Positions 3,389-43,920 are shown, counted from the first letter of the stretch. The stretch: DNA of 64,000 bases from Acidimicrobiales bacterium (GCA_035552775.1 DASZKW010000043.1:1-64000), one strand, 5' to 3'. Translations and numbers: made by a program. Notes: a model not told the origin generated them from the sequence alone.

Positions 3389-5100
3389 GCTCGGCCCCCC
3401 GGTGGCCCGTCGGGCTGCGGGCTCCCCAGCGCGCCCGGCAACGCGCCCCCCAGCGCGCCCCCCTGCACGCCTTGCAGCGCGTCGCGCACCTCGCCGACGG
3501 TAAGCCAGGGGTCGGGGGCGAAGACCTTGGCCACCTGGGGGGCGAACACCGGGGAGTGGCACACCATCTGGCGCGCTGGTCCGTCGCCCACCACCGCGCC
3601 GTCGGCCAAGAACACCACCCGGTCGGCGACCTGGGCCGTCAACTCCACGTCGTGGGTGGCGACGACCACGGCGTGGCCGGCGCCGGCCAGATCGCCGAGC
3701 AGGGCGCCCAGCCGGCGCTTGGCGGTGTAGTCGAGGCCTCGGGTCGGCTCGTCGAGCAGCACCAGCGGGGGCTCGGGTGCGAGGATCACGGCGAGGGCGA
3801 GACCGAGGCGCTGACCCTCGGATAGGTCCCGGGGGTGGCGGCCGGGGTCCAGGTCAGCGGCGATGGTGTCCAGCACCGACGCCGTCGTTCCCGTCTTCAG
3901 CCCGCCGTCGCGGTCGGCGGTCGCGCATTCCTCGGCGACGCTCGACGCCCACAGCAACACCCCGGCGTCCTGGGGTACCAGTCCGACCCGGCGGGTCAGC
4001 TCGGCCGGGGTCATGGTGTGCGGCGCCCCGCCGAGCACCCGGACCCTCCCGCCGGTGGGGGCCCGGGCACCGGCGAGGCGGGAGAGGAGCGTGGACTTGC
4101 CCGATCCGTTGCGCCCCATCACCGCCGTGATCTGCCCCCGGTAGAACTCGACGTCGACATGGCGCAGCGCCGGCCGGCCGGCGTAGACCACGGTGAGCGC
4201 TTCGGCGGTGGCAACCGGCCCCCCTGGGGCACCCCGCGGCGCGCCGGCCGGCGCCTGGGCGCCGGCGCCGGCGGCGGCGGCGGCGGCGGTGAGCTCGGCA
4301 CGCAACGGGCCGGCAAATCGGCGGGCGTCGCGCACCGACAGCGGCAGCGGTGACCAGCCGGCCAGGCGCCCGAGCTCGACGATGGGCGGGGCGACGGGAG
4401 AGGTGGCCATCACCTCGGATGGCGGGCCCGTCTGCAAGGGCCGGCCGGCGCCGGGCACGCTGATGACCCGGTCGGCGAATGGGATCACCCGCTCCAGGCG
4501 GTGCTCGGCGACGACGACGGTGAGGCCGACGTCGTGGACGAGGCGGGCCAGCGACGCCAGCACGTCCTCGGCGGCGGCCGGGTCGAGGGCGGAGGTGGGC
4601 TCGTCGAGGACGAGGACCCGGGGGGAGGCGGCGAGCACGGCGCCGATGGCGACCCTTTGCTGCTGGCCGCCCGACAGACTCCGCACGGGGCGGGACCGCA
4701 CCTCGTGGAGTCCGAGAAGGTCGAGGGTGTCCTCCACCCGGCGGCGCATCGCCGCGGGGTCCACCCCGAGGTTCTCCATGGTGTAGGCGAGCTCGTCCTC
4801 GACGACGTCGGTGACGAAGCTGGCGGCCGGATCCTGGCCCACGAAACCGACGAGGTCGGCCATGTCCCGGGGCCGGTGATCGCGGGTGCTGCGCCCGTCC
4901 ACGCTGACCCGACCGCGCAAGTGGCCGCCACTGAAGTGGGGCACCAGGCCGTTGACGGCACGCAACAACGTGGATTTCCCCGAGCCCGTACGACCGATGA
5001 CGACGCACAACTCGCCCTCGGCGACATCGAGCGCCACGTCGCGCAACGTCGGTTCCGGGGCAGCGGGGTAGGAGAAAGAGACGTCGTCGAAGTTGATCAC
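3385..5100 (-). CDS. ECF transporter ATPase, EcfA-EcfA' fusion (two ABC domains)
   Basis: Two Walker A motifs (GRTGSGKST, GRNGSGKST) and two LSGGQ/LSEGQ signatures. The GTG start at 5100 overlaps the TGA of ecfT (GTGA). The upstream 500 aa of the track ORF 3385..6606 is out-of-frame read-through. Confidence 0.8.
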   Translation of the reverse strand: MINFDDVSFSYPAAPEPTLRDVALDVAEGELCVVIGRTGSGKSTLLRAVNGLVPHFSGGHLRGRVSVDGRSTRDHRPRDMADLVGFVGQDPAASFVTDVVEDELAYTMENLGVDPAAMRRRVEDTLDLLGLHEVRSRPVRSLSGGQQQRVAIGAVLAASPRVLVLDEPTSALDPAAAEDVLASLARLVHDVGLTVVVAEHRLERVIPFADRVISVPGAGRPLQTGPPSEVMATSPVAPPIVELGRLAGWSPLPLSVRDARRFAGPLRAELTAAAAAAGAGAQAPAGAPRGAPGGPVATAEALTVVYAGRPALRHVDVEFYRGQITAVMGRNGSGKSTLLSRLAGARAPTGGRVRVLGGAPHTMTPAELTRRVGLVPQDAGVLLWASSVAEECATADRDGGLKTGTTASVLDTIAADLDPGRHPRDLSEGQRLGLALAVILAPEPPLVLLDEPTRGLDYTAKRRLGALLGDLAGAGHAVVVATHDVELTAQVADRVVFLADGAVVGDGPARQMVCHSPVFAPQVAKVFAPDPWLTVGEVRDALQGVQGGALGGALPGALGSPQPDGPPGGRA

Positions 5101-11491: not shown

Positions 11492-13354
11492 TCAAGGGCC
11501 TGCGCTGATGGGGCGGCCCAGGGAGCGCGGCGACGTCAACTCCTCTTGGCGCCACGCGCCGACCGGGGGTAGGTCGACACGGGCGAAGGACCCGGCCGCC
11601 AGGTCCTCCACCGCCCGGTGGTGGCTGACCAGCACCACGCCGGGGGCGAGCTCGACGGTCGCCTCGCCGCGCCGGCCGAGGTCCACGACGTCGAGGACCC
11701 GCACCGGCCATCGCCCCGCCGCCGAGGGGGCGACCTCCTCGGGGTCGACCGACCACAACACCCGTGCGCCCGGCCGCGCCGCCGCGCCGGGACCCAGATC
11801 GCAGGGCACGACGATCGGCCATGCGCCCGACCCCGCCGCGACCAGCGACGCCCCCGCGACGGTGCCTTCGTGGACGTTGGCCAACCCGAGCAGGTGGGCC
11901 ACTGTGACCGACGCGGGGCGGTCGAACAGCTCCCGGCGCGTGCCGGCCTGGAGGACCCGCCCTCCAGCGAGCACGACTATCTCGTCGGCCAAGGCCGCAG
12001 CCTCCTCGGGGTCGTGGGTCACCACCACGCTGGGCATGCCGGTGTCGACCTGGAGACGGCGCAGCTCGGCGCGCAGGGCGCGGCGAAGGGTGGTGTCCAA
12101 GGCGGCGAGCGGCTCGTCGAGAAGCAGAACCCGGGCCGGAGAGGCCAGGGCCCGGGCGAGGGCGACGCGCTGGCCCTGTCCCCCCGACAGCTCGGCGGGG
12201 TAGCGGGCCTCCAAGCCGTTCAGCCCCAGGCGGTCCAGCCACCACGACGCCCGGCCCGGGGATGCCCCCACGGCGAAGGTGACCTGGTCCCAAACGTCGA
12301 GGTGGGGCACCAGGGCGCCCCCCTGGGGGACGTAGCCCATTCCCCGCTGCTCGGCGCTGAGGGCTCCCAGCTCGTCGTCGCCGACCCTCACCCATCCTTC
12401 GGTCGTCGCCCTCACGCCGGCCAGCAGCTGGAGGGTGAGGCTTTTCCCCGCCCCCGACGGACCCACCACGGCGAGACGGGGGGACCCGGCCCGGTGGGCG
12501 ACGCGCAGGTCGAAGGTGCCGAGGCGCGCCCGGACCGAGAAGTCGAGGGGGAGGCTGGCGCTGGGACGGGGGGCCTCGGGCGGCGGGGGGGGCGGGGGCG
12601 GGCGGCGGCGGCGGCGCAGGTGCCCGACGCCAACGGCCACCAAGGCGGTGGCGATGGCGAGGTCGACGGGCACCTGGGTGGCCGACAGGCCCGTGCTGTC
12701 GAAGCCCACGTATGCGTACACGGGCAGGGAGTAGGGGTGGTAGGCGAGCAGCACGGTGGCGCCGAACTCGCCGAACGCCCGCAGCCAGGTCAGCACCAGG
12801 CCGGCGCGGATCCCAGGCAGCGCTTCGGCGACATCCACACGCCAGAAACGGGACCACCGCCGGTGACCGAGGGTGGCCGCCACCGCGTCGAGGGAAGGGT
12901 CGACGCCGGAAAACCCGGCCCGGGCGGCGACGATCAGGAACGGACCAGCCACGAACGTCTGGGCCAGGACGATGCCCCAGATCGACTCGGTCAGGCGTCC
13001 ACCGCTGTGGCGGCCGAGGAACGTGTACGGCCCGACCACCCGGATGAGCAGCAGGCCGCTCACCAGCGGGGGCAGGGCGAGGGGAAGCTGGACGAGCGCC
13101 CCGACCGTCCCCCACGCCCGGCGGCCCCAGCCCGGCGGCCGGCGGCGGGCGAGGACCCATGCGAGGGGTATGCCGAGGAGCGCTGTCACGGCGGTGGCCA
13201 CGCTGCTGGCCAGCACGGAGGTGCCGAGCGCCGCCCATACGCTGCTGCCACCGAGGCCTTGCCAATGCCCGGGCCCGAGGCGGGTCAGGGTCAGGGCGAC
13301 TGGAACGATGAGGTAGACGGCCAGCACGCCGCCGAGCACGGCGGCGACCGGCAC
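11492..13354 (-). CDS. molybdate ABC transporter permease-ATPase fusion (ModB-ModC), with C-terminal TOBE
   Basis: N-terminal ModB permease (EAA-like loop, 6 TM). Poly-Pro linker [13 protein letters not shown] encoded by a poly-G/C tract near 12590-12625. Then Walker A GPSGAGKS, LSGGQGQRVALARAL, Walker B LLLDEP, and a TOBE tail. GTG start at 13354 with GAGGAGG Shine-Dalgarno. Confidence 0.75.
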   Translation of the reverse strand: MPVAAVLGGVLAVYLIVPVALTLTRLGPGHWQGLGGSSVWAALGTSVLASSVATAVTALLGIPLAWVLARRRPPGWGRRAWGTVGALVQLPLALPPLVSGLLLIRVVGPYTFLGRHSGGRLTESIWGIVLAQTFVAGPFLIVAARAGFSGVDPSLDAVAATLGHRRWSRFWRVDVAEALPGIRAGLVLTWLRAFGEFGATVLLAYHPYSLPVYAYVGFDSTGLSATQVPVDLAIATALVAVGVGHLRRRRRPPPPPPPPEAPRPSASLPLDFSVRARLGTFDLRVAHRAGSPRLAVVGPSGAGKSLTLQLLAGVRATTEGWVRVGDDELGALSAEQRGMGYVPQGGALVPHLDVWDQVTFAVGASPGRASWWLDRLGLNGLEARYPAELSGGQGQRVALARALASPARVLLLDEPLAALDTTLRRALRAELRRLQVDTGMPSVVVTHDPEEAAALADEIVVLAGGRVLQAGTRRELFDRPASVTVAHLLGLANVHEGTVAGASLVAAGSGAWPIVVPCDLGPGAAARPGARVLWSVDPEEVAPSAAGRWPVRVLDVVDLGRRGEATVELAPGVVLVSHHRAVEDLAAGSFARVDLPPVGAWRQEELTSPRSLGRPISAGP

Positions 13355-24728: not shown

Positions 24729-25337
24729 TCAGGTAGGCACGGCGGAGAGGGCCTCTGGTTGACCGCAGGCGGCCAGCCAGTTGGCCACCAGGCGGTGGCC
24801 GGCGGTGGTGAGTATCGACTCGGGGTGGAACTGCACCCCCTCGACAGCCAGGGAGCGGTGCCTCAGGCCCATGACGGTGCCGTCGTCTGCCCAGGCGCTG
24901 ACCTCCAACGCGGCGGGGATGGCGTCGGGCGCCACCACCAGGGAGTGGTACCGGGTGCCTACCAGAGGCTCGGGGAGGCCGGCGAAGACGCCGCGACCGT
25001 CGTGGCTCACCTCGGAAGTCTTGCCGTGCATCAGCCGAGCGGCGCGCTCGACGCGGCCGCCGAACACCTCGGCGATGCACTGGTGACCGAGACAGACCCC
25101 GAGGATCGGCACCCGCCCGGCCAGCGCCGCTATCGCGGGGCTGGCGATGCCGGCGCCGGCCGGGCGGCCGGGCCCGGGTGACACGAGCATGCCGTCGGGG
25201 CCGAGCGCCTCGATCCCAGCCACGTCGGTGGCGTCGTTGCGGACGACCACGGGATCGGCGCCGAGCTCGCCTAGGTACTGGACCAGGTTGTACACGAACG
25301 AGTCGTAGTTGTCGACGACGACGATCCGGGCGCCCAC
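24729..25337 (-). CDS. trpG: anthranilate/aminodeoxychorismate synthase component II (glutamine amidotransferase)
   Basis: GVCLGHQ catalytic Cys motif. Conserved position next to pknB as in mycobacteria. Confidence 0.85.
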   Translation of the reverse strand: MGARIVVVDNYDSFVYNLVQYLGELGADPVVVRNDATDVAGIEALGPDGMLVSPGPGRPAGAGIASPAIAALAGRVPILGVCLGHQCIAEVFGGRVERAARLMHGKTSEVSHDGRGVFAGLPEPLVGTRYHSLVVAPDAIPAALEVSAWADDGTVMGLRHRSLAVEGVQFHPESILTTAGHRLVANWLAACGQPEALSAVPT

Positions 25338-25400
25338 CCGACCAAGGCTAGGGCCCTAGGGCGCCGGACGGTGCGGCCTTCGTTCACCTATCGTGGGGGC

Positions 25401-25688
25401 ATGGCCAGAAGGACCAAGGACGCGCCTGGTCGGGTAACCCCCAAGGGCGGTCCTGCAAAATCGCGAGCGGCGGTGACGTCGGGCCGCTATACGGCGCCGA
25501 TACCGAGCGAGTACCGCTCCAGCCCGTGGTGGACGCCGGTGGTCATGCTGGCGTTCTTCGGCCTCGGCATCCTGTGCATCCTGCTCAACTACCTGAGCAT
25601 CCTGCCCGGCGGGGCGAGTAACGCTTACCTGCTGACGGGCTTGGGCCTCATCGTGGTCGGCTTCATCATCGCCACCCGCTGGCACTGA
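25401..25688 (+). CDS. crgA: cell division protein CrgA
   Basis: Two-TM small protein ending ...IATRWH, as in mycobacterial CrgA. Confidence 0.75.
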   Translation: MARRTKDAPGRVTPKGGPAKSRAAVTSGRYTAPIPSEYRSSPWWTPVVMLAFFGLGILCILLNYLSILPGGASNAYLLTGLGLIVVGFIIATRWH

Positions 25689-25929
25689 CGCCGCCCGCCG
25701 CGTGACCGGCGGGTTAACGGGGCCTCCTCGGTAGTTACAGAGGTGTGACACTCCCCAGATTTGTCCACAGTCTGGGGATAAGAAAAATCTGGGTGGTCAG
25801 ATGGGCTTCGGTCCTATGAGGGTCGCGGTCATGGCAACCCCTGACTAATGGGGTTGCGCCGGGTACCCTCGCTCGGTTCCACCTCGGGCGCCGCAGCGGC
25901 CCGGCTGGCGATCGGACCCACACGAGAAG

Positions 25930-26919
25930 ATGTCCCGTCCGTATAGATCTCCCCATCTGCGCACGGTCGGCCTCTATGCATTGACCCTGTGGGCCGTAAT
26001 CACGCTCGTATTCGTGCTACCCCGGCTGCTGCCCGGCGATCCCCTGGCCAGCCTCAGCGATCCGAGCAGCGGCAACTTCCTCTACGACCCGACCGCCCGA
26101 GCCAAGATCGCCGCCTACTACGGGTTGAACAAACCGCTCGTCAACCAGTACTTCGCCTACCTGGCAGGCCTGGCCCATGCCCAACTCGGCTGGTCAATCT
26201 CGCAGAACACTCCCGTCACCACCATCATCGCCCGGCGCCTGCCTTGGACCCTGCTGCTAATGGTGACCGCGTTGGCATTGTCGTCGGTGATCAGCTTCCT
26301 GACCGGGGTGACAGCTGCCTGGCACCGGGGGGACCGGATCGACCGCGCGCTGATCGTAGCGCTCTCGGCGGCGCGCACGATCCCCGACTACGCCGTGGCG
26401 AGCCTCCTTCTGGTCGCCTTGGCGGTCGTGGTGCCGGTGTTCCCGCTGGCGGGAGCCAAGACCGCCTTCGCCAGCTACTCGTCGCCTTTCGCGGCCATCG
26501 GTGACGTCGGCCGCCACATGGTCCTACCGGTCGTGGCGCTGACCGCGGGACTGGCGGGCAACAAGTTCCTCACCGTCCGCAACACGGTCATCTCCACCCT
26601 CGGGGAGGACTACATGCTGCTGGCCCGGGCCAAGGGGCTCCCGCGCCGGCTGCTCAAGTACCGTCACTCCGGTCGCAACGCCCTTCTCCCGTTCGTGACC
26701 GCCGTGGGCATCCAGACCGGTTTCGCGGTCGGCGGGGCTCTGTTCGTGGAGACCGTCTTCTCCTACCCCGGCATGGGCACCCTGATGAACGCGGCTGTGA
26801 CCGCCCGGGACTATCCACTGCTCCAGGGCAGCTTCTTGGTGCTGGCAACTGTCGTCTTGGTGGTCAACCTGGTCGTCGAGTTGGCCTACGGGCGGCTGGA
26901 CCCCCGCGTGCGGGTATGA
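25930..26919 (+). CDS. ABC peptide/nickel-type permease (DppB/NikB family)
   Basis: Six-TM permease with EAA loop (ARAKGLPRRLLKYRHSGRNALLP). Confidence 0.85.
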   Translation: MSRPYRSPHLRTVGLYALTLWAVITLVFVLPRLLPGDPLASLSDPSSGNFLYDPTARAKIAAYYGLNKPLVNQYFAYLAGLAHAQLGWSISQNTPVTTIIARRLPWTLLLMVTALALSSVISFLTGVTAAWHRGDRIDRALIVALSAARTIPDYAVASLLLVALAVVVPVFPLAGAKTAFASYSSPFAAIGDVGRHMVLPVVALTAGLAGNKFLTVRNTVISTLGEDYMLLARAKGLPRRLLKYRHSGRNALLPFVTAVGIQTGFAVGGALFVETVFSYPGMGTLMNAAVTARDYPLLQGSFLVLATVVLVVNLVVELAYGRLDPRVRV

Positions 26920-27803
26920 CCCTGCCCGCCGTGACCGGCGATGCAGCGGTCCGAGCGCGAGCGGTCCCGTTCTGGCGCCGGCGCCCGGGGATGGGGCTGG
27001 TCGGTGGCGTCGTCGTAGGCGCCTTCGCAGTGCTGGCCGCGCTGGGCGGGACGCTCGCCCCCTACCGGCCGTCGGCCATCACCGGTGCGACCCTCCAGGC
27101 GCCAGGGACCGGCCATCTCCTAGGCACCAACGGCATCGGCCAGGACGTGGCCACCCAGCTGATCCTGGGTACACGGGTCTCGCTGGTGGTGGCCGTGCTC
27201 GCCGGCGTAGGCACCGTGGCGCTCGGGGGGATCGTGGGGATCGGGGCCGGCTGGTCCAGGGGCTGGGTGGACGCCGTGCTGATGCGTTTCACCGACGTGG
27301 TGCTGGTGTTGCCCAAACTGCCGCTGCTGCTGCTGGTAGGCGCCTTGACGGGTGGCTCCGTGGTGGCGTTGGCCGGGCTGATCGCTGCCACCTTCTGGCC
27401 GATGACCGCACGCATCTTGCGCTCCCAGGTCCTCACTTTGCGGTCGCGCACCCATATCCGGGCGGCCACCGGCTTCGGGGCGGGGTCCTGGTACCAGCTA
27501 CGCCATCACATCCTCCCCGACCTGGGACTGCTCCTCATCGCCGACCTCATCCCCGCGGCCGGACGGGCGGTCGCCCTGCAGGCGGGCCTGGCCTTCCTCG
27601 GGGTGGGCAACCCCGCCCAGCCCAGCTGGGGTGCCATGATGCGTGATGCCCTCAATTACCCGTACCTGTTCGAGACTTCGGCGTGGTTGTGGTGGCTGGT
27701 CCCGCCCGTGCTGTGCATCATGGCGCTGGTGATCGGCGTGACTTTGCTCGGCACGGCGGCTGAGACCCGCGTAAGCCCCCGGCTGGCCCGCCACCAGCGC
27801 TAA
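26916..27803 (+). CDS. ABC peptide/nickel-type permease (DppC/NikC family)
   Basis: Permease with EAA-like loop. Overlaps the previous gene. Confidence 0.85.
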   Translation: MTLPAVTGDAAVRARAVPFWRRRPGMGLVGGVVVGAFAVLAALGGTLAPYRPSAITGATLQAPGTGHLLGTNGIGQDVATQLILGTRVSLVVAVLAGVGTVALGGIVGIGAGWSRGWVDAVLMRFTDVVLVLPKLPLLLLVGALTGGSVVALAGLIAATFWPMTARILRSQVLTLRSRTHIRAATGFGAGSWYQLRHHILPDLGLLLIADLIPAAGRAVALQAGLAFLGVGNPAQPSWGAMMRDALNYPYLFETSAWLWWLVPPVLCIMALVIGVTLLGTAAETRVSPRLARHQR

Positions 27804-27809
27804 GCCGCC

Positions 27810-29570
27810 ATGAGCTCCCCGAGGCTGCGTGTCGAGGACCTGCGGGTCACCTACCCGGGGAATCGGCCGGTGACGGCGCTCGCCGGCGTCGACCTGACGC
27901 TGGACGCCGGGAGCTGCCTGTGCGTGCTCGGCGAGTCGGGATCCGGCAAGTCGACTCTGGCTCACGGCCTGATCGGGCTCCTCGGCGATGCCGAGGTCGC
28001 TGGCCGCATCCGGCTGGAGGGCGAGGACCTCGCCGACCAGGGCGACTGGCAGCGCGTGCGCTGGCGCCAAATTTCGATAGTGCTGTCGTCGGGCACAGCG
28101 CTCAACCCGGTGCTGCGCATCGGGGACCAAATCGCCGAGCCGCTAAAGGTACACGGGGGAGCGAGCTCAGGAGCAGCCAATGCGCGGGTCGACGCGCTGC
28201 TCGACCAGGTCGGCCTGGGACCGTGGGCGGCAGGGCGTTTCCCTAGGGAGCTTTCGACCGGCCAGCGCAGGCTGGCCATGATTGCGGTGGCGCTGGTTTG
28301 CGACGCTCCGGTGGTCCTCCTGGACGAGCCGACTTCGGGGCTCGACCCGCAAACTCGCAGGGAGCTACTGCGCCTGCTGGGCGCGCTCCGCGACGAGGGC
28401 CGCAGCCTGCTCATGCTCACCCACGACCTGGCCGCCGCCCGGGCCCTGGCCGACGAGGTGCTCGTGTTGTACCGGGGGTGGGTGGCCGAACGGGGACCGG
28501 CGGCCGCCGTGCTCGACGATCCGCGCCACCCCTACTCCTTCGGGCTACTCAACGCCAATCCCAGCCTGGGGTCGGTGAAGGAGCTGCGCGGCATCCGCGG
28601 CGACCCCCCCGACCCGAGCCAGGTGGCGGTCGGGTGCCCGTTCGTCGAGCGCTGCACCCAGGCCATCCCCGCCTGTGTGAAGCAGCGGCCCCCCGAGATC
28701 CCACCCGACGGCGAGGACGGGCCGCGGCACGTGGCCTGCGTCCGCGCCGGTCTGGTCCCGGTCCTCGAGCTGCGGGCGATCACCAAGAGCTACCTTCTCC
28801 GCCAGGGCCCGCTCGGCCATCAGCATGTGGCCGCCGTGGCAGGGGTCGATCTAACCGTCCGCGAGTCCGAGGTGGTCGGCCTGGTCGGCCGCAACGGGGC
28901 TGGCAAGTCGACCCTCGCCCAGATATGCGCCCGCCTCCTCGAGCCTGACGCTGGCGAGGTTCGCCTGGAGGGGACCGACGTGCTGGCGCTGACCGGGCGC
29001 GACTTGCGCCGGGCCCGGGCCCGGGTGCAGATGCTCTTCCCCGACCCGCTCGAGGCGCTGTCTGCCCGGTTCACGGTCGGCCGGCTGGTGCGCGAGCCGC
29101 TCGACGTCCAGGAGGTCGGCGACCCTGAATGGCGCGACGAGGAGGTGACCCGCCTCCTCGGCCAGGTTCGCCTGCCCGCGTCCGCGGTCCTCGACCGGAG
29201 GACCCACGAGCTCTCCACCGGCCAGCTCCAGCGGGTGGCGCTGGCCAGGGCACTGGCGCTGGCTCCCAAGCTGCTCGTGGCCGACGAGCCCGTGGAGCAC
29301 CTGGACCCCTCCGAGCGGGCCAAGGTGCTGCAGCTGTTGAAGACCATCCAGGTGGAACGGGGAATGGCCATGTTGCTGGTCTCCCATGACCTGGGGGTCG
29401 TGCTGCGCGTCGCCGACCGGGTGGTGGTGGTCGACGGCGGCCGGGTCGTTGAGGAGGGGCCGAGCGCCCAGATACTCCGCCACCCCGCGCATCCGGTCAC
29501 CCGCCAGCTTTTGGAGGCCAGCGGAGCGGAGATCGCTGATCGGTTTTCCGGCCTACTTGACCCGGTATAG
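27810..29570 (+). CDS. fused double ABC ATPase (DppD-DppF-like)
   Basis: Two Walker A motifs (GESGSGKST, GRNGAGKST), two signature motifs, and a C-terminal oligopeptide-ABC C-terminal region. Confidence 0.85.
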   Translation: MSSPRLRVEDLRVTYPGNRPVTALAGVDLTLDAGSCLCVLGESGSGKSTLAHGLIGLLGDAEVAGRIRLEGEDLADQGDWQRVRWRQISIVLSSGTALNPVLRIGDQIAEPLKVHGGASSGAANARVDALLDQVGLGPWAAGRFPRELSTGQRRLAMIAVALVCDAPVVLLDEPTSGLDPQTRRELLRLLGALRDEGRSLLMLTHDLAAARALADEVLVLYRGWVAERGPAAAVLDDPRHPYSFGLLNANPSLGSVKELRGIRGDPPDPSQVAVGCPFVERCTQAIPACVKQRPPEIPPDGEDGPRHVACVRAGLVPVLELRAITKSYLLRQGPLGHQHVAAVAGVDLTVRESEVVGLVGRNGAGKSTLAQICARLLEPDAGEVRLEGTDVLALTGRDLRRARARVQMLFPDPLEALSARFTVGRLVREPLDVQEVGDPEWRDEEVTRLLGQVRLPASAVLDRRTHELSTGQLQRVALARALALAPKLLVADEPVEHLDPSERAKVLQLLKTIQVERGMAMLLVSHDLGVVLRVADRVVVVDGGRVVEEGPSAQILRHPAHPVTRQLLEASGAEIADRFSGLLDPV

Positions 29571-29621
29571 TCCAGCGACTCCCACGGAGTCCGATCTCGA
29601 CGGGGAAGGGATGCACTCCCA

Positions 29622-31274
29622 GTGACACGACGCTACGTGACCGCCTTCGCCTGCGCCGCTGTGCTGGCGCTCGGACTTACGGCGTGCGGGAGCTCCGGCG
29701 CCAAAAAAGCCAGCGGCGCGGGCCCCTTAACATTGCGTTTCGCCGGCTCCAGCCAGGGAGCTGGCTATCCCACCCCGTTCGCCGCCATCCGGGGGCCAGG
29801 ACAGCTGCTGACAACCTTCATGTTCGACACCCTGGCCTTCCCCGACGTCACCGGTCAGCCGAAGCCGTGGCTCGCCCAGTCCTGGCAGGAGTCTGCCGAT
29901 GGCAAGACGTGGACCTTCCAGCTTCACCCCAAGGTCACCTGGCAGGACGGCAAGCCGCTCACGTCGGCCGACGTGGTGTTCAGCTTCAATTACGACCTGC
30001 ACGGGCCGGGAGAGGCGACCGGCGTCGCCCAAGGCATCAACTACATCCGCAACGTCACCGCCACGGGGCCCGACACGGTGGTCATCAAGCTCAAAGCCCC
30101 CGAAGCCTCGTTCCTCTCCGACATCGCCGGGGCGTTCGGGGTGGCCATCATCCCCCAGCACATCTGGGCGGCGGTGAGCGACCCCGCCCATTTCCAGGGG
30201 CCCCAGTCGCTGATCGGATCGGGCCCGTACCGGCTGAAGACGTTCGACCTGAGCACCGGCAGCTACGACTTCGTGGCCAACGACGGATTCTACCTCGGCA
30301 GGCCCACTGTCCAGCAGTTCCAGATCATCCCGGAAAACAACCCGCTGGTTGCCCTCCAGCAAGGACAGCTGACTTCGGCCTCCACGTCCAACGGCGTGTT
30401 CCCCCAGGCGGAGTTCAACCTACTCAGCAAGAGCTTCAAGTTGCTGACAGCCCCGGGAGAGTTCAACGAGGCTCTCTTTTTCAACCTGGCCGGCGGCTCC
30501 CCCTACAACCAGGTGGATTTCCGCCACGCGGTGGCCTACGCCCTGAACCGCCAGGACATGCTCGACCGGCTGGCAGACGGGCGCGGCGTTCCCGGTAGCG
30601 CCGGCGGCCTGGGGCCTGACAACCCCTACCTCGACAACAACGTGGCGTCCTACCCCTACGACCCGGCCAAGGCAAAAGCACTCCTCGACCAGCTCGGGAT
30701 CAAGGCTGCCGCCGGTGCCACCTTTCGCACAAGCCCCGACGGTGCGTCCCTGACGATCCCGCTTCTCGCCAGCGCGGCCGACATCCAGCAGGCACAGCTC
30801 GTCCAGCAGTACCTGCGGGCGGTGGGCCTCAACGTGCAGATCACCTCGGTCGACCAGCCGACCTCCGACGCAGCCGACGCGAGCGGGCACTACAAGATGG
30901 CCATCGTGCACTTTGGCGGCCTGGGCAGCGATCCGAGCGGGCTCATCCAAAGGTTCGCCTCCTCCTCCAAGAGCAAGTCGTTCACCCGGGTGACCGGCTA
31001 CCACGACCCGGCCTTCGACAAGCTGGCCGCCGAGCAGGCCACCACGGTCGACGTCGCCCATCGCAAGCAGCTCGTCGACCAGATGCAGGTACTCCTGGCC
31101 AACGACCTGCCCGAGTTGCCCCTCTACATCCCTGAACAGATCACCTTCGTGAACGCCAAGGTGTTCCACGGGTGGGCCTACACGCCGGCGTGCCCGCCTT
31201 GCGGGGCGGGTATGAACAAGCGGATGCTGGTGAGCGGTAGCGCTGCCCCGGCGCCGAGCAATTCGTCGACATAG
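29622..31274 (+). CDS. family-5 ABC substrate-binding lipoprotein (DppA/NikA-like)
   Basis: Lipobox LGLTAC. 550 aa SBP_bac_5 architecture. Confidence 0.85.
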   Translation: MTRRYVTAFACAAVLALGLTACGSSGAKKASGAGPLTLRFAGSSQGAGYPTPFAAIRGPGQLLTTFMFDTLAFPDVTGQPKPWLAQSWQESADGKTWTFQLHPKVTWQDGKPLTSADVVFSFNYDLHGPGEATGVAQGINYIRNVTATGPDTVVIKLKAPEASFLSDIAGAFGVAIIPQHIWAAVSDPAHFQGPQSLIGSGPYRLKTFDLSTGSYDFVANDGFYLGRPTVQQFQIIPENNPLVALQQGQLTSASTSNGVFPQAEFNLLSKSFKLLTAPGEFNEALFFNLAGGSPYNQVDFRHAVAYALNRQDMLDRLADGRGVPGSAGGLGPDNPYLDNNVASYPYDPAKAKALLDQLGIKAAAGATFRTSPDGASLTIPLLASAADIQQAQLVQQYLRAVGLNVQITSVDQPTSDAADASGHYKMAIVHFGGLGSDPSGLIQRFASSSKSKSFTRVTGYHDPAFDKLAAEQATTVDVAHRKQLVDQMQVLLANDLPELPLYIPEQITFVNAKVFHGWAYTPACPPCGAGMNKRMLVSGSAAPAPSNSST

Positions 31275-31299
31275 CCGTAGCCAAACCCCGGAGGTTCAG

Positions 31300-31947
31300 A
31301 TGTCCGCCACCGACCAAGAGACCATTCGCCGGATCGAGGACTTCCACGGACACATGTGCCCCGGGCTAGCGATGGGCATCCGGGCCGCCGAGGTGGCGCT
31401 GGAGTGTATTGGAGCCCACGCGGCGGACGAGGAGGTAGTGGCCATCGTCGAGACCGACATGTGCGGCGTCGACGCCATACAGTTCCTGACCGGCTGCACC
31501 TTCGGTAAGGGCAATCTCATCCACTTGGACTACGGCAAGAACGCCTACACGTTCTGCCGTCGCTCCGACGGTCGGGCGATCCGGGTTACCGGCAAGGCCC
31601 GCGCGTGGGGTGGAGAGGACCCCGAGTGGCAGCGCCTGTTCACTTCCGTGCGGGGCGGCGGCGCCACCCCCGAGGAGCACCGGCGCTTCACCACGTTGCA
31701 CCGCGCCCGGGCAGAGCGAGTCCTGTCTGCCCCCATCGACGATCTCTACGAGGTGGCCAAAGTGGACGTCGAGGTGCCGGCGAGGGCACGCATCCACACC
31801 TCGCTGCCCTGCGCCAACTGCGGCGAGAACACCATGGAGACCCGGGTGCGGCTTCTTCGGGGCCGCCAACTGTGCCCTCCCTGCTTCGAGGCCGAGCTGG
31901 CCGGTCGCCATCCGGTCGCCATGCGCGGGGCGCCCAGTTCCACCTGA
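31300..31947 (+). CDS. FmdE-family protein with C-terminal zinc ribbon
   Basis: FHGHMCPGLAMGIRAAEVAL N-terminal FmdE-like motif. C-terminal CANCGEN...CPPCFEAE zinc ribbon. Confidence 0.65.
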   Translation: MSATDQETIRRIEDFHGHMCPGLAMGIRAAEVALECIGAHAADEEVVAIVETDMCGVDAIQFLTGCTFGKGNLIHLDYGKNAYTFCRRSDGRAIRVTGKARAWGGEDPEWQRLFTSVRGGGATPEEHRRFTTLHRARAERVLSAPIDDLYEVAKVDVEVPARARIHTSLPCANCGENTMETRVRLLRGRQLCPPCFEAELAGRHPVAMRGAPSST

Positions 31948-32015
31948 CCCGTTCGAGCGGCGCCCGACCCGTTCGAGCGGCGCCCGACCCATCCGAGTTG
32001 CGCCGTGCCGACGGC

Positions 32016-33212
32016 TCAACCGAGACGCTCGATGATCATTGCGTTGGCCAGCCCGCCACCTTCGCACATGGTCTGGAGCCCGTAGCGGCCGCCGCTTCGG
32101 CCCAGCTCGAACACCAAGGTGGCGAGCAACTTGGTGCCCGAAGACCCCAGGGGATGACCGAGGGCGATCGCCCCCCCGTTGACGTTGACCCGGCTCATGT
32201 CGGGGCGAAGCTCCTGCTCCCAGGCCAACACGACTGACGCGAAGGCCTCGTTGATCTCGACCGCGTCGATGTCGTCGATGGTCAGCTTGGCCTTCTCCAG
32301 CACCTTGCGGGTGGCGGGGATGGGACCGGTGAGCATGGTTACGGGATCGACGCCTGCCAGGGCAAAGGCGTGGAACCGGGCCAGCGGCGTGAGACCGAGA
32401 GCGGCGCATCGCTCCTCGCTCATGATGAGAGCAGCTGACGCGCCGTCGGTGATCTGCGAGGAGTTGCCGGCGGTGATCTTGCCATCCGGCTTGAACGCCG
32501 GCTTCAAGTTGGCCAAAGTCTCGGCGGTGGTGCCCGGTCGGATCCCTTCGTCGGCGGTGACGGTCTCGCCGGTAGCGACGATCTTGCCCGTTTCCTTGTC
32601 CTTGACCCTCGCCGCCACGGGCACGATCTCCTGGTCGAAGCGGCCCTCCTCGGTGGCTCGGACCGCCAGTTGCTGGCTGCGGGCGCCGAAGGCGTCGAGA
32701 TCGGCACGCGACAGGTCCCACCGGTCGGCGATGAGCTCTGCGGAGATGCCCTGAGGGACCAGACCGCCTACTGCGGCGTAGCGCTCGGCCACCGTCGGGC
32801 CGAAGGGGACGCCAACGCCGGGGACAATGGCCGAAGCGCCCATGGGTACCAGGCTCATCACCTCGACGCCGGCGGCGACGACCACGTCGTAGGCCCCGGA
32901 CATGACGCCCTGGGCGGCGAAGTGCACCGCCTGCTGCGACGACCCGCACTGGCGGTCGATGGTCGTGGCCGGCACGGACTCGGGCCAACCCGCGGCCAGC
33001 ACGGCGTTACGCCCGACGTTGATGGACTGGGCGCCGACCTGCATGACGCAGCCCATGATCACGTCCTCGACCATTTCGGGGTCGAGGTCGTTGCGTGCGG
33101 CCAAGGCCTCGAGGACCGCAGCCGCCAAGTCGACGGGATGCCACCCCGACAGCTTCCCGTTGCGCTTGCCCCCGGCGCTGCGGACGGCGTCGACGATCAC
33201 GGCGGTGGTCAT
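32016..33212 (-). CDS. acetyl-CoA C-acetyltransferase (thiolase)
   Basis: Catalytic motifs: Cys (DRQCGSSQQAV), NGGAIALGHPLGSSG, CEGGGLANAM. Confidence 0.9.
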   Translation of the reverse strand: MTTAVIVDAVRSAGGKRNGKLSGWHPVDLAAAVLEALAARNDLDPEMVEDVIMGCVMQVGAQSINVGRNAVLAAGWPESVPATTIDRQCGSSQQAVHFAAQGVMSGAYDVVVAAGVEVMSLVPMGASAIVPGVGVPFGPTVAERYAAVGGLVPQGISAELIADRWDLSRADLDAFGARSQQLAVRATEEGRFDQEIVPVAARVKDKETGKIVATGETVTADEGIRPGTTAETLANLKPAFKPDGKITAGNSSQITDGASAALIMSEERCAALGLTPLARFHAFALAGVDPVTMLTGPIPATRKVLEKAKLTIDDIDAVEINEAFASVVLAWEQELRPDMSRVNVNGGAIALGHPLGSSGTKLLATLVFELGRSGGRYGLQTMCEGGGLANAMIIERLG

Positions 33213-42943: not shown

Positions 42944-42963
42944 GAGTCTCCCCTCCTTCACCT

Positions 42964-42994
42964 CGTCCACAGGCTGTGCATCAATCTGTGGACG
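42964..42994. terminator. 9-bp perfect inverted repeat (cgtccacag-N13-ctgtggacg) between convergent parB and cwlM-like gene
   Basis: Seen directly. Each arm resembles a DnaA box (TCGTCCACA vs TTGTCCACA). Confidence 0.4.
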
Positions 42995-43038
42995 AAGTAT
43001 TCGGACGACTACGGGGTGGGACGCCTACGGGGGGACGC

Positions 43039-43920
43039 CTACTCGGGGAAGGGCCGCTCCACCCAGCGATCGAGGGCGGACAGGAGAGCATCGGCGATCT
43101 CAGCGGCGCGCATGACGGCGACCGACGCCGGACCGATCTCCACCAGGACCGCTGGCATCCGGGTTTCCCGCAGGATGGTGATGCGCATGCCCCGGCAACC
43201 GGTACCGGGGATACGGAGCCGTGCCGGTAGATCCTCGTGGACAAGACCGGCGAGGTGGCGCCCGGCTTCCGAACAGAAGCCGTTGTGGCCCAAGAAGTAA
43301 GCGGTGCGACATCCGTCCAGGTCCGGGTCGAGCCGCACCCCGAGGTATACGTCGACCTTGGCGGCGTTGGCCTGCGCCGCCTGGGCGGATTCGTCGAGGT
43401 CGTGCAGGCTCAGCACCTCGGCTCCTCCCCGGCGCAACGCCCGGCGGATGGCGTCGGCCAGCGCCGCCAGTCCTCCGGTCTCGCCGACCGCGATGCGCCA
43501 GCCCCGCAGGGTGCGGGGAGCGTCGCTCAGGCGTACCCGCTCCCGGATGCCCGCCACGAGCACCGTCCCGGTTATCTTCGCCGTGTAGCTACGCAACAGC
43601 TGCACGGTTCCCGGACCGCAGATCCCGTCTTCGGTCAGGCCCAGGTTGCGCTGGAACTCACAGACCGCGGCGTGCGTTTGGGGCCCGAAGATCCCGTCCA
43701 CCCGGCCGGCGTCGAAACCGAGGGCGCCCAGCTGGCGCTGCAGGGAGGCCACGTCGTCGCCCCGCAGCATCCCTCGCCGGTAGTACAAGAGCCGCTCGCC
43801 CAAGGTCCGCCCGGCCTCCACCAACGCGTTCCAGGTCTGATGGCCGCAGACGGCATCCACCCTCAGCCCGTGGCTGGCCTGGAACACACGGACAGCGGCG
43901 ACGGTGCCCGGACCGAACAA
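43039..43920 (-). CDS. CwlM-like protein: two peptidoglycan-binding domains plus degenerate amidase_3-like domain; 5' end unresolved
   Basis: PG_binding_1 repeats (GPGTVAAVRVFQASHGLRVDAVCGHQTWNAL; DGIFGPQTHAAVCEFQRNLGLTEDGICGPGTVQLL). The annotated TTG start truncates the first domain (see findings). Confidence 0.6.
   Translation of the reverse strand: MFGPGTVAAVRVFQASHGLRVDAVCGHQTWNALVEAGRTLGERLLYYRRGMLRGDDVASLQRQLGALGFDAGRVDGIFGPQTHAAVCEFQRNLGLTEDGICGPGTVQLLRSYTAKITGTVLVAGIRERVRLSDAPRTLRGWRIAVGETGGLAALADAIRRALRRGGAEVLSLHDLDESAQAAQANAAKVDVYLGVRLDPDLDGCRTAYFLGHNGFCSEAGRHLAGLVHEDLPARLRIPGTGCRGMRITILRETRMPAVLVEIGPASVAVMRAAEIADALLSALDRWVERPFPE

What the first reader, a model, noticed from the sequence alone, without database searches (positions are those of the whole stretch)
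25690..31947. Dpp/Nik-like ABC operon with unusual gene order, fused ATPases and a terminal FmdE-like zinc-ribbon protein; structured low-GC leader
Gene order is permease, permease, fused double ATPase, lipoprotein SBP, FmdE-family protein. The SBP is last rather than first, and the FmdE protein is appended 26 nt downstream. The 240-nt leader (25690-25929) is noticeably lower in GC. It holds two hairpins (ccccaga-N11-tctgggg at 25753-25777; gcaacccc-N8-ggggttgc at 25834-25857) and a perfect actinobacterial DnaA-box 9-mer TTGTCCACA (25761-25769) in the first loop. FmdE-like proteins are recurrently linked to metal handling. This could be a metal-chelate or Ni/Co-type importer under riboswitch or repressor control.
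Basis: partly seen in the sequence, partly recalled or inferred. Interest (0 to 1): 0.55.

Follow-up and report, generated by a model that had tools for sequence, protein, structure and literature searches.

The report
Nickel-type ABC importer with FmdE partner
A five-gene operon in an Acidimicrobiales genome encodes a peptide/nickel-family ABC importer plus a small metal-binding FmdE protein; this pairing recurs across many phyla, sometimes beside nickel-hydrogenase genes, but the structured leader in front of it is not a conserved riboswitch.

Summary
The genes are as described: permease, permease, fused double ATPase, lipoprotein binding protein, and an FmdE + zinc-ribbon protein, packed as one operon after crgA. 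The gene order and the fused ATPase are normal for Actinobacteria (M. tuberculosis OppBCDA/DppABCD).

The 241-nt leader holds the two hairpins and the TTGTCCACA 9-mer. None of these exceeds chance. No Rfam family matches. Orthologous operons in other genomic contexts have unrelated or almost no upstream DNA. The one near-identical relative has lost hairpin 2. Riboswitch control is not supported.

The FmdE link is real:
- 42 of 80 species-level FmdE loci carry a Dpp/Nik-type ABC system within 10 kb.
- 11 more carry a FecCD-type metal-chelate system.
- 7 of 8 distinct loci reached through the transporter's own genes have FmdE.
- 9 distantly related Dpp-type loci have none.
- 10 of 80 loci, plus two loci of the window's own SBP subfamily, also carry [NiFe]-hydrogenase genes, and a CooC-like ATPase recurs nearby.

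The binding protein lacks E. coli NikA's six ligand residues, so it is not a NikA orthologue.

Best reading: a nickel- or metal-chelate importer with FmdE as a cytoplasmic metal-handling accessory. It is one ordinary member of a widespread but uncharacterised module. The link between FmdE and metal transporters was noted in 2010.

The parts
25371..25688 (+). crgA (upstream neighbour, not part of the operon). It marks the conserved pbpA-pknB-trpG-crgA block.
   Evidence: Pfam CrgA, E=2.7e-10. Context.
25689..25929 (+). Intergenic leader (241 nt). It presumably holds the crgA terminator-like hairpin and the operon's promoter or 5' UTR. It is not a recognised or conserved RNA element.
   Evidence: No Rfam match. 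No sigma-70-like promoter or intrinsic terminator found. Folding z=-2.74. No homology to the upstream DNA of orthologous operons.
25694..25713 (+). GC-rich hairpin (CCCGCCG-N6-CGGCGGG) 6 nt after the crgA stop codon. Possibly a crgA 3' hairpin.
   Evidence: I6.: -16 kcal/mol, z=-2.1.
25752..25778 (+). Hairpin 1 or inverted repeat (TCCCCAGA-N11-TCTGGGGA), with TTGTCCACA (25761-25769) in the loop. An alternative 3' arm lies at 25782-25793.
   Evidence: Kept with one loop substitution in the near-identical relative L093, where the alternative arm is deleted. Absent from all other orthologous operons.
25834..25857 (+). Hairpin 2 (GCAACCCC-N8-GGGGTTGC).
   Evidence: Destroyed in L093.
25930..26919 (+). 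ABC permease 1 (DppB/NikB-type).
   Evidence: BPD_transp_1, E=3.7e-32. The best NCBIfam model is Opp2B 'nickel ABC transporter permease', 224 bits, below its 350-bit cut-off.
26916..27803 (+). ABC permease 2 (DppC/NikC-type). Its start overlaps the permB stop by 4 nt.
   Evidence: BPD_transp_1, E=3.9e-18. Gaps.
27810..29570 (+). Fused double ATPase. Walker A motifs start at residues 41 and 360. The linker domain carries Cys276/282/289/310 (nt 28635-28739).
   Evidence: Two ABC_tran domains plus oligo_HPY. The spacing C-x5-C-x6-C-x20-C resembles the [4Fe-4S] ligands Cys284/290/297/315 of E. coli DppD. The Fe-S domain also occurs in the fused M. tuberculosis OppD (PMC12136057).
29622..31274 (+). 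Lipoprotein substrate-binding protein, family 5. Lipobox Cys22. Subfamily signatures GYPTP and RGPG. C-terminal CPPC at residues 524-527 (nt 31191-31202).
   Evidence: SBP_bac_5, E=1.3e-67. Lipobox. Best PDB hit is E. coli NikA, E=1.7e-33, but the NikA ligand residues are not kept. Signatures.
31300..31947 (+). FmdE-family protein. The N-terminal domain has the His16/His18/Cys20/Cys55 metal site. The C-terminal treble-clef finger uses Cys171/174/192/195.
   Evidence: PF02663, E=1e-44. PDB hits 2gvi, 2glz and 3d00. The ligand residues are invariant or near-invariant in 24 homologues. They match the Zn/Ni site described in PMC2954224.
31946..31997 (.). 20-nt tandem repeat (2.2-2.6 copies) in the 68-nt spacer between the FmdE stop and the convergent thiolase stop.
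32016..33212 (-). Convergent thiolase gene. It marks the 3' end of the operon.
   Evidence: Thiolase_N and Thiolase_C. The same neighbour is found in L125/L126.

Best explanation
The region is one operon. It encodes a peptide/nickel-family (Opp/Dpp/Nik, 'PepT') ABC importer: two permeases, one polypeptide with both ATPase domains, and a lipid-anchored extracellular binding protein. A cytoplasmic FmdE-family protein with a His2Cys2 metal site and a Cys4 zinc ribbon completes it.

Shown:
- The gene content and tight packing.
- The five-gene module is conserved as a unit in different genomic contexts.
- FmdE is specifically linked to this transporter subfamily, and also to FecCD-type metal-chelate importers.

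Inferred:
- The cargo is a transition metal or metal chelate, most likely nickel.
- The lipoprotein captures the cargo outside the cell, and the permease-ATPase complex translocates it.
- FmdE then handles the metal on the cytoplasmic side, either as first acceptor or chaperone, or by releasing it from its ligand.
- In many relatives FmdE's start overlaps the ATPase stop, which suggests it works with the ATPase subunits.

The leader is ordinary intergenic DNA with lineage-specific hairpins, not a riboswitch.
For: Operon and families.

The module is conserved across contexts.
- The same five genes in the same order follow a glyoxalase-family gene in L081/L082.
- They follow a CooC-like gene and precede the his operon in L085/L086.
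- L125/L126 keep the SBP-FmdE-thiolase end of the window's layout.

FmdE linkage among 80 species-level FmdE loci.
- 38 have a PepT binding protein or permease within 10 kb; 42 if the fused ATPase is counted.
- In 29 the nearest PepT gene is <=300 nt away, and in 21 of those it is on the same strand.
- 11 carry FecCD, Peripla_BP_2 or TonB-receptor genes.

Sampling that did not start from FmdE.
- permB-first: L098, L100 and L106 all have FmdE. Nine distant PepT loci with long flanks have none.
- SBP-first: L125/L126, L127, L128 and L129 have it; L123/L124 do not.

Binding protein. The FmdE-linked SBPs from Actinobacteria to ANME archaea share G[YFH]PxP and RGPG signatures. The equally distant SBPs of L116 and L119, which lack FmdE, do not have them.

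Metal site. H16, H18, C20 and C55 are conserved. They equal the Zn/Ni site of the solved homologues.

Nickel context.
- [NiFe]-hydrogenase small or large subunit, HycI, HypC or HypD genes lie within 10 kb in 10 of 80 species loci.
- The same is true of L127 and L128, whose SBPs are 65% and 60% identical to the window's.
- A MinD-class ATPase with a deviant Walker A and a G-C-x-C-x-x-H motif recurs there. JGI names its relatives 'CO dehydrogenase maturation factor'.
- I estimated the chance rate of lying within 10 kb of a hydrogenase gene at about 1%. Under that assumption, 10 of 80 has a binomial P of about 9e-9.

From my own knowledge: both ABC types linked to FmdE have known nickel-specific members, E. 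coli NikABCDE and H. pylori NiuBDE.
Against: - The window's 64 kb holds no hydrogenase, Hyp, CooC-like or operon-type methyltransferase gene. The nickel link is therefore borrowed from orthologues.
- Most hydrogenase-adjacent loci use a second, different SBP subfamily. Only L046, L127 and L128 belong to the window's subfamily.
- The SBP keeps none of E. coli NikA's R97, W100, R137, W398, Y402 and H416. It is about equally distant from NikA, DppA, a mannoside binder and others.
- Of all NCBIfam models matched, only nickel_nikE reaches its cut-off (338 vs 333 bits). That score is inflated because two ATPase domains are summed.
- One close relative (SBP 80% identical, L123/L124) has no FmdE next to the operon.
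- The solved homologues bind Zn in crystals, and the nickel seen in 2GLZ could be a purification artefact (my inference; PMC2954224 reports mixed Zn/Ni).
- No experiment on any member of this FmdE clade was found.
Confidence: 0.55

Rival explanations
1. An ordinary oligopeptide or dipeptide nutrient importer, like M. tuberculosis OppABCD. The FmdE gene merely sits next to it and has an unrelated role.
For: - PepT family with the same layout as the M. tuberculosis Opp and Dpp systems (PMC2923189, PMC12136057).
- Peptide-type NCBIfam models score about as well as nickel ones.
- The NikA ligand residues are absent.
- L123/L124 lack FmdE.
Against: - FmdE stays with this transporter subfamily through many rearrangements of gene order and across phyla. 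Its start often overlaps the ATPase stop.
- Distant PepT loci lack it, 0 of 9.
- FmdE also pairs with FecCD-type chelate importers and with hydrogenase and CooC-like genes.
Confidence: 0.15
2. The importer carries another metal or an organic metallophore complex (Zn, Co, Cu, or an opine- or siderophore-like chelate) rather than nickel. FmdE and, in relatives, an O-methyltransferase would process the ligand.
For: - Zn occupies the FmdE site in crystals, and an unidentified ligand sits 1.8 Å from the conserved Cys (PMC2954224).
- A PF00891 O-methyltransferase lies inside the orthologous operon in L008, L098 and L127-L129, and next to it in L006, L010, L013, L016, L034, L100 and L123.
- The FecCD-type partners are typical chelate importers.
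- The SBP has a clade-specific CPPC motif.
- Staphylopine (Cnt) models give weak hits.
Against: - The only enzyme context that recurs is [NiFe]-hydrogenase plus a CooC-like ATPase.
- No metallophore biosynthesis genes were seen in any locus.
- The window has no methyltransferase.
Confidence: 0.2
3. FmdE is a metal-sensing regulator of the operon rather than a chaperone. It would act on transcription through its zinc ribbon, or gate the ATPase post-translationally.
For: - The C-terminal finger matches the DksA/TraR C4 model.
- Axelrod et al. raised regulation and metal sensing as possible roles (PMC2954224).
- Fusions of FmdE to transcriptional regulators are reported in Methanosaeta (PMC11237513).
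- A nickel chaperone that controls an ABC importer has a precedent in H. pylori (title and abstract of PMC7840056).
Against: - No DNA-binding domain is present.
- No conserved operator lies upstream of orthologous operons.
- FmdE is far more conserved (about 50-77% identity across phyla) than the SBPs it accompanies (27-60%). This fits a core biochemical role better than a locus-specific regulator.
Confidence: 0.12
4. The leader is a metal- or cofactor-sensing riboswitch or attenuator that controls the operon.
For: - Three hairpins and an alternative pairing, 25754-25765 with 25782-25793.
- Folding z=-2.74.
- Hairpin 1 is kept in L093.
Against: - No Rfam family matches, even at E<=10.
- Relatives have 10-104 nt or unrelated DNA in front of permB.
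- In L093 hairpin 2 and the alternative arm are lost. The only change in hairpin 1 is a loop base, so there is no covariation.
- No terminator-like site was found.
Confidence: 0.03

Closest known systems
E. coli NikABCDE nickel importer
   Same: - Same ABC family: two permeases, two ATPase domains and a family-5 binding protein.
- NikA is the best solved-structure match to the SBP.
- In relatives the module sits beside [NiFe]-hydrogenase genes. From my own knowledge, nik serves the hydrogenases in E. coli.
   Different: - The SBP shows only family-level similarity to NikA (phmmer E=1.7e-33) and keeps none of the six NikA ligand-contact residues.
- The ATPases are fused and the SBP is a lipoprotein.
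- No nikR gene or NikR operator was looked for or recognised.
- An FmdE gene is present, which nik lacks.
M. tuberculosis OppABCD / DppABCD
   Same: - Gene order B-C-D-A (PMC2923189).
- A single polypeptide with two NBDs joined by a Cys4 Fe-S-type domain, and a lipoprotein SBP (PMC12136057).
   Different: - Those systems import peptides (PMC2923189, PMC12136057) and have no FmdE partner (my knowledge).
- The window's SBP belongs to a separate clade with the GYPxP and RGPG signatures.
FmdE family (PF02663): Ta1109 (2GVI), Dhaf_2992 (2GLZ), SYN_00638 (3D00), and FmdE of the methanogen fmd operon
   Same: - Same fold and domain pair.
- Same FHGHxC...C metal motif and Cys4 treble clef.
- Axelrod et al. 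2010 already noted that most family members lie next to metal-ion transporters.
   Different: - No member has a demonstrated function.
- The specific coupling to a PepT subfamily, and the hydrogenase and CooC-like neighbourhood, were not found in the papers searched.
H. pylori NiuBDE (FecCD-type nickel importer) and S. aureus CntABCDF (opine-metal importer)
   Same: They show that both ABC types found next to FmdE can carry nickel or metal chelates (my knowledge). Cnt models give weak hits to the window's proteins.
   Different: No close sequence relationship. Neither system has an FmdE gene (my knowledge).

Membership tests
PepT (Opp/Dpp/Nik) ABC importers | Two BPD_transp_1 permeases, two ABC_tran domains with an oligo_HPY extension, and a family-5 SBP in one operon | tested here: met
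Actinobacterial fused-NBD PepT systems (MtbOpp/MtbDpp type) | Both NBDs in one polypeptide, joined by a Cys4 Fe-S-type domain, with a lipoprotein SBP | tested here: met
   586-aa ATPase with Walker A motifs starting at residues 41 and 360, and C276/C282/C289/C310. Lipobox LTAC. Compared with PMC12136057. Actual Fe-S binding was not tested.
NikA-type nickel-binding proteins (E. coli NikA) | Ligand-contact residues R97, W100, R137, W398, Y402, H416 | tested here: not met
   The aligned residues are A, V, F, G, S and K. The alignment in these loops is of moderate confidence.
NikA-type nickel-binding proteins (E. coli NikA) | Score above the curated NCBIfam cut-off (TIGR02294) | tested here: not met
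   137.8 bits against a cut-off of 393.
Nickel uptake systems in general | Genomic association with nickel enzymes or their maturation genes | tested here: inconclusive
   Met in orthologues (L046, L127, L128) and in 10 of 80 FmdE loci. Not met in the window itself.
Nickel uptake systems in general | Control by a nickel regulator (NikR, Nur or similar) or a NiCo riboswitch | tested here: inconclusive
   No NiCo or other riboswitch. No palindrome is shared upstream of orthologous operons. Regulator genes and operators were not searched systematically.
FmdE family (PF02663) | Pfam domain above the gathering score | tested here: met
   152.3 bits against 22.9.
FmdE family (PF02663) | FHGHxC motif plus a distal Cys forming the His2Cys2 metal site | tested here: met
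   F15-H16-G17-H18-M19-C20 and C55 are invariant or near-invariant. They correspond to His16/His18/Cys20/Cys61 of Ta1109.
FmdE family (PF02663) | C-terminal Cys4 treble-clef zinc finger (two-domain subtype) | tested here: met
   C171, C174, C192 and C195 are invariant. zf-dskA_traR hit. The fold matches 2gvi.
FmdE family (PF02663) | Association with formylmethanofuran dehydrogenase genes (the original FmdE) | tested here: not met
   No fmd or fwd genes in the window or in the neighbourhoods that were annotated. According to PMC2954224, only 13 of 208 family members have that context.
Riboswitch or other cis-regulatory leader RNA | Match to a described RNA family | tested here: not met
Riboswitch or other cis-regulatory leader RNA | Structure conserved with covariation in relatives | tested here: not met
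   Only L093 is alignable. Hairpin 2 and the alternative arm are lost there, and there is no compensatory change. Other orthologous operons have unrelated leaders.
DnaA-box / oriC element | A cluster of DnaA boxes above chance | tested here: not met
   One exact box. With <=1 mismatch, 5 are found in the window vs 6.8 expected.

The most novel reading that the evidence does not exclude
FmdE, whose function has been unknown since it was found in the methanogen fmd operon, is a dedicated cytoplasmic nickel (or metal-chelate) hand-off factor. It would dock on the ATPase side of Nik-like and FecCD-like importers and pass the metal on to maturation ATPases of the CooC type and so to [NiFe]-hydrogenases. 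The window's operon would then be a minimal, experimentally tractable example from an aerobic actinobacterium.
Probability: 0.3. Interest if true: 0.6.

Novelty: new member of a known kind. Interest (0 to 1): 0.3.

Why it matters
The window's operon is one of thousands of copies of a widespread module, so by itself it is ordinary.

The comparative result has some value. It ties an old orphan family (FmdE, PF02663) to one subfamily of Nik-like ABC importers, to FecCD-type importers, and repeatedly to [NiFe]-hydrogenase and CooC-like genes in aerobic soil lineages: Acidimicrobiia, Gaiellales, Rubrobacterales and Chloroflexota. These lineages include groups reported to scavenge atmospheric hydrogen (PMC6776052, PMC7174314). 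How they obtain and route nickel is little studied, as far as I know. A defined five-gene unit makes the question testable by heterologous expression.

The result also removes a false lead. The leader is not a riboswitch, and the gene order is not unusual.

Tried and rejected
- Rfam: the leader and operon at E<=10, then the whole window and eight related loci at gathering score. Only tRNAs were found.
- Leader conservation: blastn of the leader against all fetched loci gave only chance-level hits inside coding regions. Pattern searches for both inverted repeats and the DnaA box upstream of 22 orthologous operons found them only in the window and L093.
- Promoter and terminator scan of 25300-26100: nothing.
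- Small ORFs in the leader: only short ones of 24-32 aa on the + strand, with no supporting evidence.
- Hydrogenase, Hyp, CooC-like, PadR and methyltransferase homologues in the window: none. The one hit was a weak, unrelated methyltransferase match at about 10.5 kb.
- Literature on FmdE function: essentially only the 2010 structural-genomics paper.
- Foldseek of an AlphaFold model of FmdE against the PDB to April 2026: only the three uncharacterised FmdE structures.
- Rfam scan for a SECIS element near the in-frame TGA of the CooC-like gene in L024: no hit.
- My first crude ORF caller picked antisense ORFs in high-GC loci. I replaced it with a codon-position GC filter. Counts that matter rest on tblastn instead.
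- Zur, Nur, NikR and IdeR operator consensus sequences, recalled from memory, do not match the leader by eye. This was not tested formally.
Full report
**What is there.** The window comes from an Acidimicrobiales metagenome-assembled genome. The FmdE protein is 100% identical to an NCBI entry named 'MAG TPA: FmdE family protein [Acidimicrobiales bacterium]'. Five ORFs lie on the + strand between crgA (25371-25688) and a convergent thiolase gene (32016-33212):
- two BPD_transp_1 permeases (25930-26919, 26916-27803);
- a 586-aa protein with two ABC_tran domains and an oligo_HPY domain after the first (27810-29570);
- an SBP_bac_5 protein (29622-31274);
- a 215-aa protein with PF02663 (FmdE, E=1e-44) and a C4 zinc finger (31300-31947).

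The gaps are -4, 6, 51 and 25 nt, and GGAGG precedes the FmdE start. The SBP begins with a lipoprotein signal whose lipobox is LTAC (Cys22). The descriptive part of the finding is therefore correct.

**Gene order and fusion are not unusual.** The M. tuberculosis opp operon is Rv1283c oppB, Rv1282c oppC, Rv1281c oppD, Rv1280c oppA (PMC2923189). [quoted passage not shown] The window's ATPase has Cys276/282/289/310 between its two NBDs. This spacing is close to the [4Fe-4S] ligands Cys284/290/297/315 of E. coli DppD. The layout is the standard actinobacterial one.

**The leader.**
- It is 241 nt long, with GC 0.646. The window mean is 0.702, with sd 0.044 for 240-nt windows. Parts of the operon are just as low.
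- Both hairpins and the TTGTCCACA 9-mer are exactly where stated. A third hairpin lies just after the crgA stop, and there is an alternative pairing for hairpin 1.
- None is statistically remarkable. The inverted-repeat patterns and the DnaA-type 9-mer occur no more often in the window than in dinucleotide shuffles. Folding z-scores are -2.1 to -2.7.
- No sigma-70-like promoter or intrinsic terminator was found.
- Rfam gives nothing in the leader, even at E<=10. The whole window and eight related loci give nothing but tRNAs.

**The conservation test.** The same five-gene operon occurs in other genomic places:
- directly after a glyoxalase-family gene, with a 10-35-nt gap (L081, L082);
- after a CooC-like gene, with a 104-nt gap (L085, L086);
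- divergent from a methyltransferase gene (L123).

None of these upstream regions resembles the window's leader. Only L093 shares the crgA-permB junction; its PermB is 95% identical. There, hairpin 1 and the 9-mer are kept with a single loop substitution. However, 15 nt including the alternative arm are deleted, and hairpin 2 is destroyed. I conclude that the leader is ordinary, lineage-specific intergenic DNA. Hairpin 1 may be a local operator or a structure at the 3' end of the crgA transcript, but I cannot test that.

**The binding protein.**
- E. coli NikA is the best solved-structure match (E=1.7e-33). A mannoside binder, Brucella NikA, DppA and CtaP follow within about 25 bits.
- The best NCBIfam model, nickel_nikA, scores 138 bits against a cut-off of 393.
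- The NikA residues mutated in entry 2NOO, together with His416, mark the Ni-(His)2 pocket: R97, W100, R137, W398, Y402 and H416. They align with A, V, F, G, S and K in the window's protein.
- The protein is thus not a NikA orthologue. It belongs to its own clade, marked by G[YFH]PxP and RGPG near the N-terminus.
- Actinobacterial members with >=43% identity also carry a C-terminal C-[PS]-P-C motif.

**The FmdE link is real.** A scan of one genome per species returned 80 loci that encode close relatives of the FmdE protein.
- 38 of the 80 have a PepT-type SBP or permease within 10 kb; 42 if the fused ATPase is counted.
- In 29 the nearest such gene is within 300 nt, and in 21 of those it is on the same strand.
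- Eleven others carry Peripla_BP_2, FecCD or TonB-receptor genes, which are type II metal-chelate importers.
- Many of the remaining loci are short contigs.
- Gene order varies widely: FmdE may be first, last, divergent, or overlapping the ATPase stop. The adjacency survives all of this. It spans Actinomycetota, Chloroflexota, Desulfobacterota, Deinococcota and ANME/Methanosarcina-type archaea.

**Sampling that did not start from FmdE.**
- Among permB orthologues (>=65% identity) from metagenomes, all three contigs that reach far enough have FmdE (L098, L100, L106). Nine loci with only distant PermB relatives (28-37%) and long flanks have none.
- Among SBP homologues chosen only for contig length, L125/L126, L127, L128 and L129 have FmdE. 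L123/L124 do not; a DUF302 gene follows the SBP there.
- Axelrod et al. [quoted passage not shown]

**Which metal?**
- The FmdE protein keeps the His2Cys2 site (H16, H18, C20, C55). That site held Zn, or a Zn/Ni mixture, in the solved homologues. It also keeps the Cys4 treble clef.
- [NiFe]-hydrogenase small and large subunit, HycI, HypC or HypD genes lie within 10 kb of FmdE in 10 of the 80 species loci.
- The same holds for L127 and L128, whose SBPs are 65% and 60% identical to the window's and carry the CPPC motif. L046, which has the window's gene order, also has hydrogenase genes downstream.
- A MinD-class ATPase recurs beside these modules, and directly upstream of permB in L084-L087, L102 and L106. 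It has a deviant Walker A (GKGGxGKT) and an invariant G-C-x-C-x-x-H motif. JGI names its relatives 'CO dehydrogenase maturation factor'.
- CooC is a MinD-class ATPase that inserts nickel (PMC9164220). That its nickel site is a CXC motif is from my own memory.
- From my own knowledge, both ABC types that accompany FmdE have nickel-specific members: NikABCDE and H. pylori NiuBDE.
- Against this, the window's 64 kb has no hydrogenase, Hyp or CooC-like gene. Most hydrogenase-adjacent loci use a different SBP subfamily. Zinc, cobalt or a metallophore cannot be excluded.
- An O-methyltransferase (PF00891) sits inside many orthologous operons. This hints that an organic ligand may be involved.

**Mechanism proposed.**
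- Shown: a compact operon for a PepT-type ABC importer with a conserved, specifically associated FmdE gene.
- Inferred, about 0.55: the cargo is a metal or metal chelate, most likely nickel, and FmdE acts on the cytoplasmic side.
- Inferred, about 0.3: FmdE is the first acceptor or hand-off factor and works at the ATPase subunits. This is suggested by the overlap between the ATPase stop and the FmdE start in L127-L129.
- FmdE is much more conserved (about 50-77% identity across phyla) than the SBPs it accompanies (27-60%). This fits a core biochemical role better than a locus-specific regulatory one.
- An AlphaFold model (pLDDT 84) matches only the three uncharacterised FmdE structures in the PDB up to April 2026. 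No papers on the function of this clade were found.

**Verdict.** It is overstated on the leader and on how unusual the layout is. The metal-importer reading is supported by context, and the riboswitch reading is not. The operon is a new member of a known, widespread but experimentally uncharacterised kind. Interest is modest.

**Side observation.** The most interesting thing seen lies outside the window, in related loci. The CooC-like ATPase gene has an in-frame TGA exactly at a conserved Cys of its metal motif in several lineages. This is a candidate selenoprotein.

Noticed in passing
L024 11828(-), L029 11517(-), L043 11751(-), L038 8694(-), L084 4233(+), L102 7193(+), L106 2782(+): The CooC-like MinD-class ATPase gene next to the FmdE/ABC module and hydrogenase genes has an in-frame TGA.
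- In Gaiellaceae and Rubrobacteraceae MAGs the TGA replaces the first Cys of the G-C-x-C-x-x-H motif.
- In Acidimicrobiales contigs it replaces the third Cys of G-C-P-C-C-G. All 120 full-length homologues listed have GCPCCG.
- The reading frame continues with homology for about 150 residues. A hairpin with GU in its loop starts 13-16 nt downstream.
- Gene callers split the gene in two.
This is a candidate selenocysteine-containing nickel chaperone. No report of it was found in the library searched. The in-frame TGA was also confirmed in L087, a lower-quality assembly variant of the L084 locus; its position was not mapped.
   Followed up: partly
window 31191-31202 (SBP residues 524-527): A C-terminal C-P-P-C motif (YTPxCPPCG..NKR) in the extracellular binding protein. 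It is conserved in all actinobacterial orthologues with >=43% identity (CSPC in two). More distant FmdE-linked SBPs have Gly-rich sequence there. It could be a disulfide or a thiolate metal site.
   Followed up: partly
window 28635-28739 (ATPase residues 276-310): C-x5-C-x6-C-x20-C in the linker between the two ATPase domains. It resembles the [4Fe-4S] ligands of E. coli DppD/DppF, and an Fe-S domain also occurs in M. tuberculosis OppD (PMC12136057).
   Followed up: partly
L008 3990-4931, L098 about 11643-12572, L127 9681-10673, L128 9777-10754, L129 9688-10635; adjacent in L006, L010, L013, L016, L034, L100, L123: A PF00891 O-methyltransferase lies inside or beside the orthologous transporter operon, usually between the SBP and the ATPase. 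It is absent from the window. This hints that the cargo or a co-ligand is an organic molecule.
   Followed up: partly
L047 10633-11082, L064 11896-12444, L073 10628-11068, L079 11153-11887, L038 12862-13263(-); DUF3842 in L017, L030, L040, L041, L069, L076: TrmO_N ('tRNA methyltransferase O' N-domain) genes and DUF3842 genes recur next to FmdE, mostly in FecCD-type or transporter-less loci. FmdE-TrmO fusions are reported in Methanosarcinales and Archaeoglobales (PMC11237513). A 361-aa 'long' FmdE paralogue sits beside the normal one in L056, L064 and L076.
   Followed up: no
L021 9221-9973, L028 2818-3480: In two Chloroflexota loci a membrane protein with PF09819 ('ABC-type cobalt transport system, permease component') lies between the CooC-like ATPase and FmdE. 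The cluster follows HycI and NifU-Rieske hydrogenase maturation genes.
   Followed up: no
L123 / L124 (SBP 80% identical to the window's): An exception to the FmdE adjacency. The operon ends with the SBP, followed by a convergent DUF302 gene, with no FmdE within the contig.
   Followed up: no
window 42963-42995: A perfect 10-bp inverted repeat, TCGTCCACAG-N13-CTGTGGACGA, lies about 20 nt after the parB stop. It amounts to two inverted DnaA-box-like 9-mers (TCGTCCACA). It shares the core GTCCACAG with the loop of leader hairpin 1. Another near-match lies at 43236-43244.
   Followed up: no
window 22686-43000: Synteny. The order is pbpA-pknB-trpG-crgA, then the ABC/FmdE module, thiolase, AhpC, MscS and VIT1, then rnpA-yidD-yidC-jag-gidB-parA-parB, then amidase and trxB. 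From my own knowledge, M. tuberculosis has the dnaA-dnaN-recF-gyrB-gyrA block between crgA and rnpA. That block is missing here, so the module occupies an origin-proximal position without dnaA.
   Followed up: partly
window 31946-31997: A 20-nt unit (GACCCGTTCGAGCGGCGCCC) repeated 2.2-2.6 times, starting at the last two bases of the FmdE stop codon, plus an 11-nt duplication (CCGGTCGCCAT) inside the 3' end of the gene at 31901-31922.
   Followed up: no
L081 about 3990-4025 (upstream of the glyoxalase gene that precedes the operon): A fragment that looks like the 3' end of a tRNA (GGTCGTCGGTTCGAACCCGACCTCGGGCTCA) lies in the 537-nt spacer upstream of the glyoxalase-operon unit. It may be a remnant of an integration site. 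The module does appear in several different genomic contexts.
   Followed up: no
L085 / L086 5710-8331 and 2948-5569: In these contigs the second permease and the double ATPase are called as a single 873-aa protein. The near-identical L084/L087 show the same genes broken into pieces. This may be a real fusion or an assembly frameshift.
   Followed up: no
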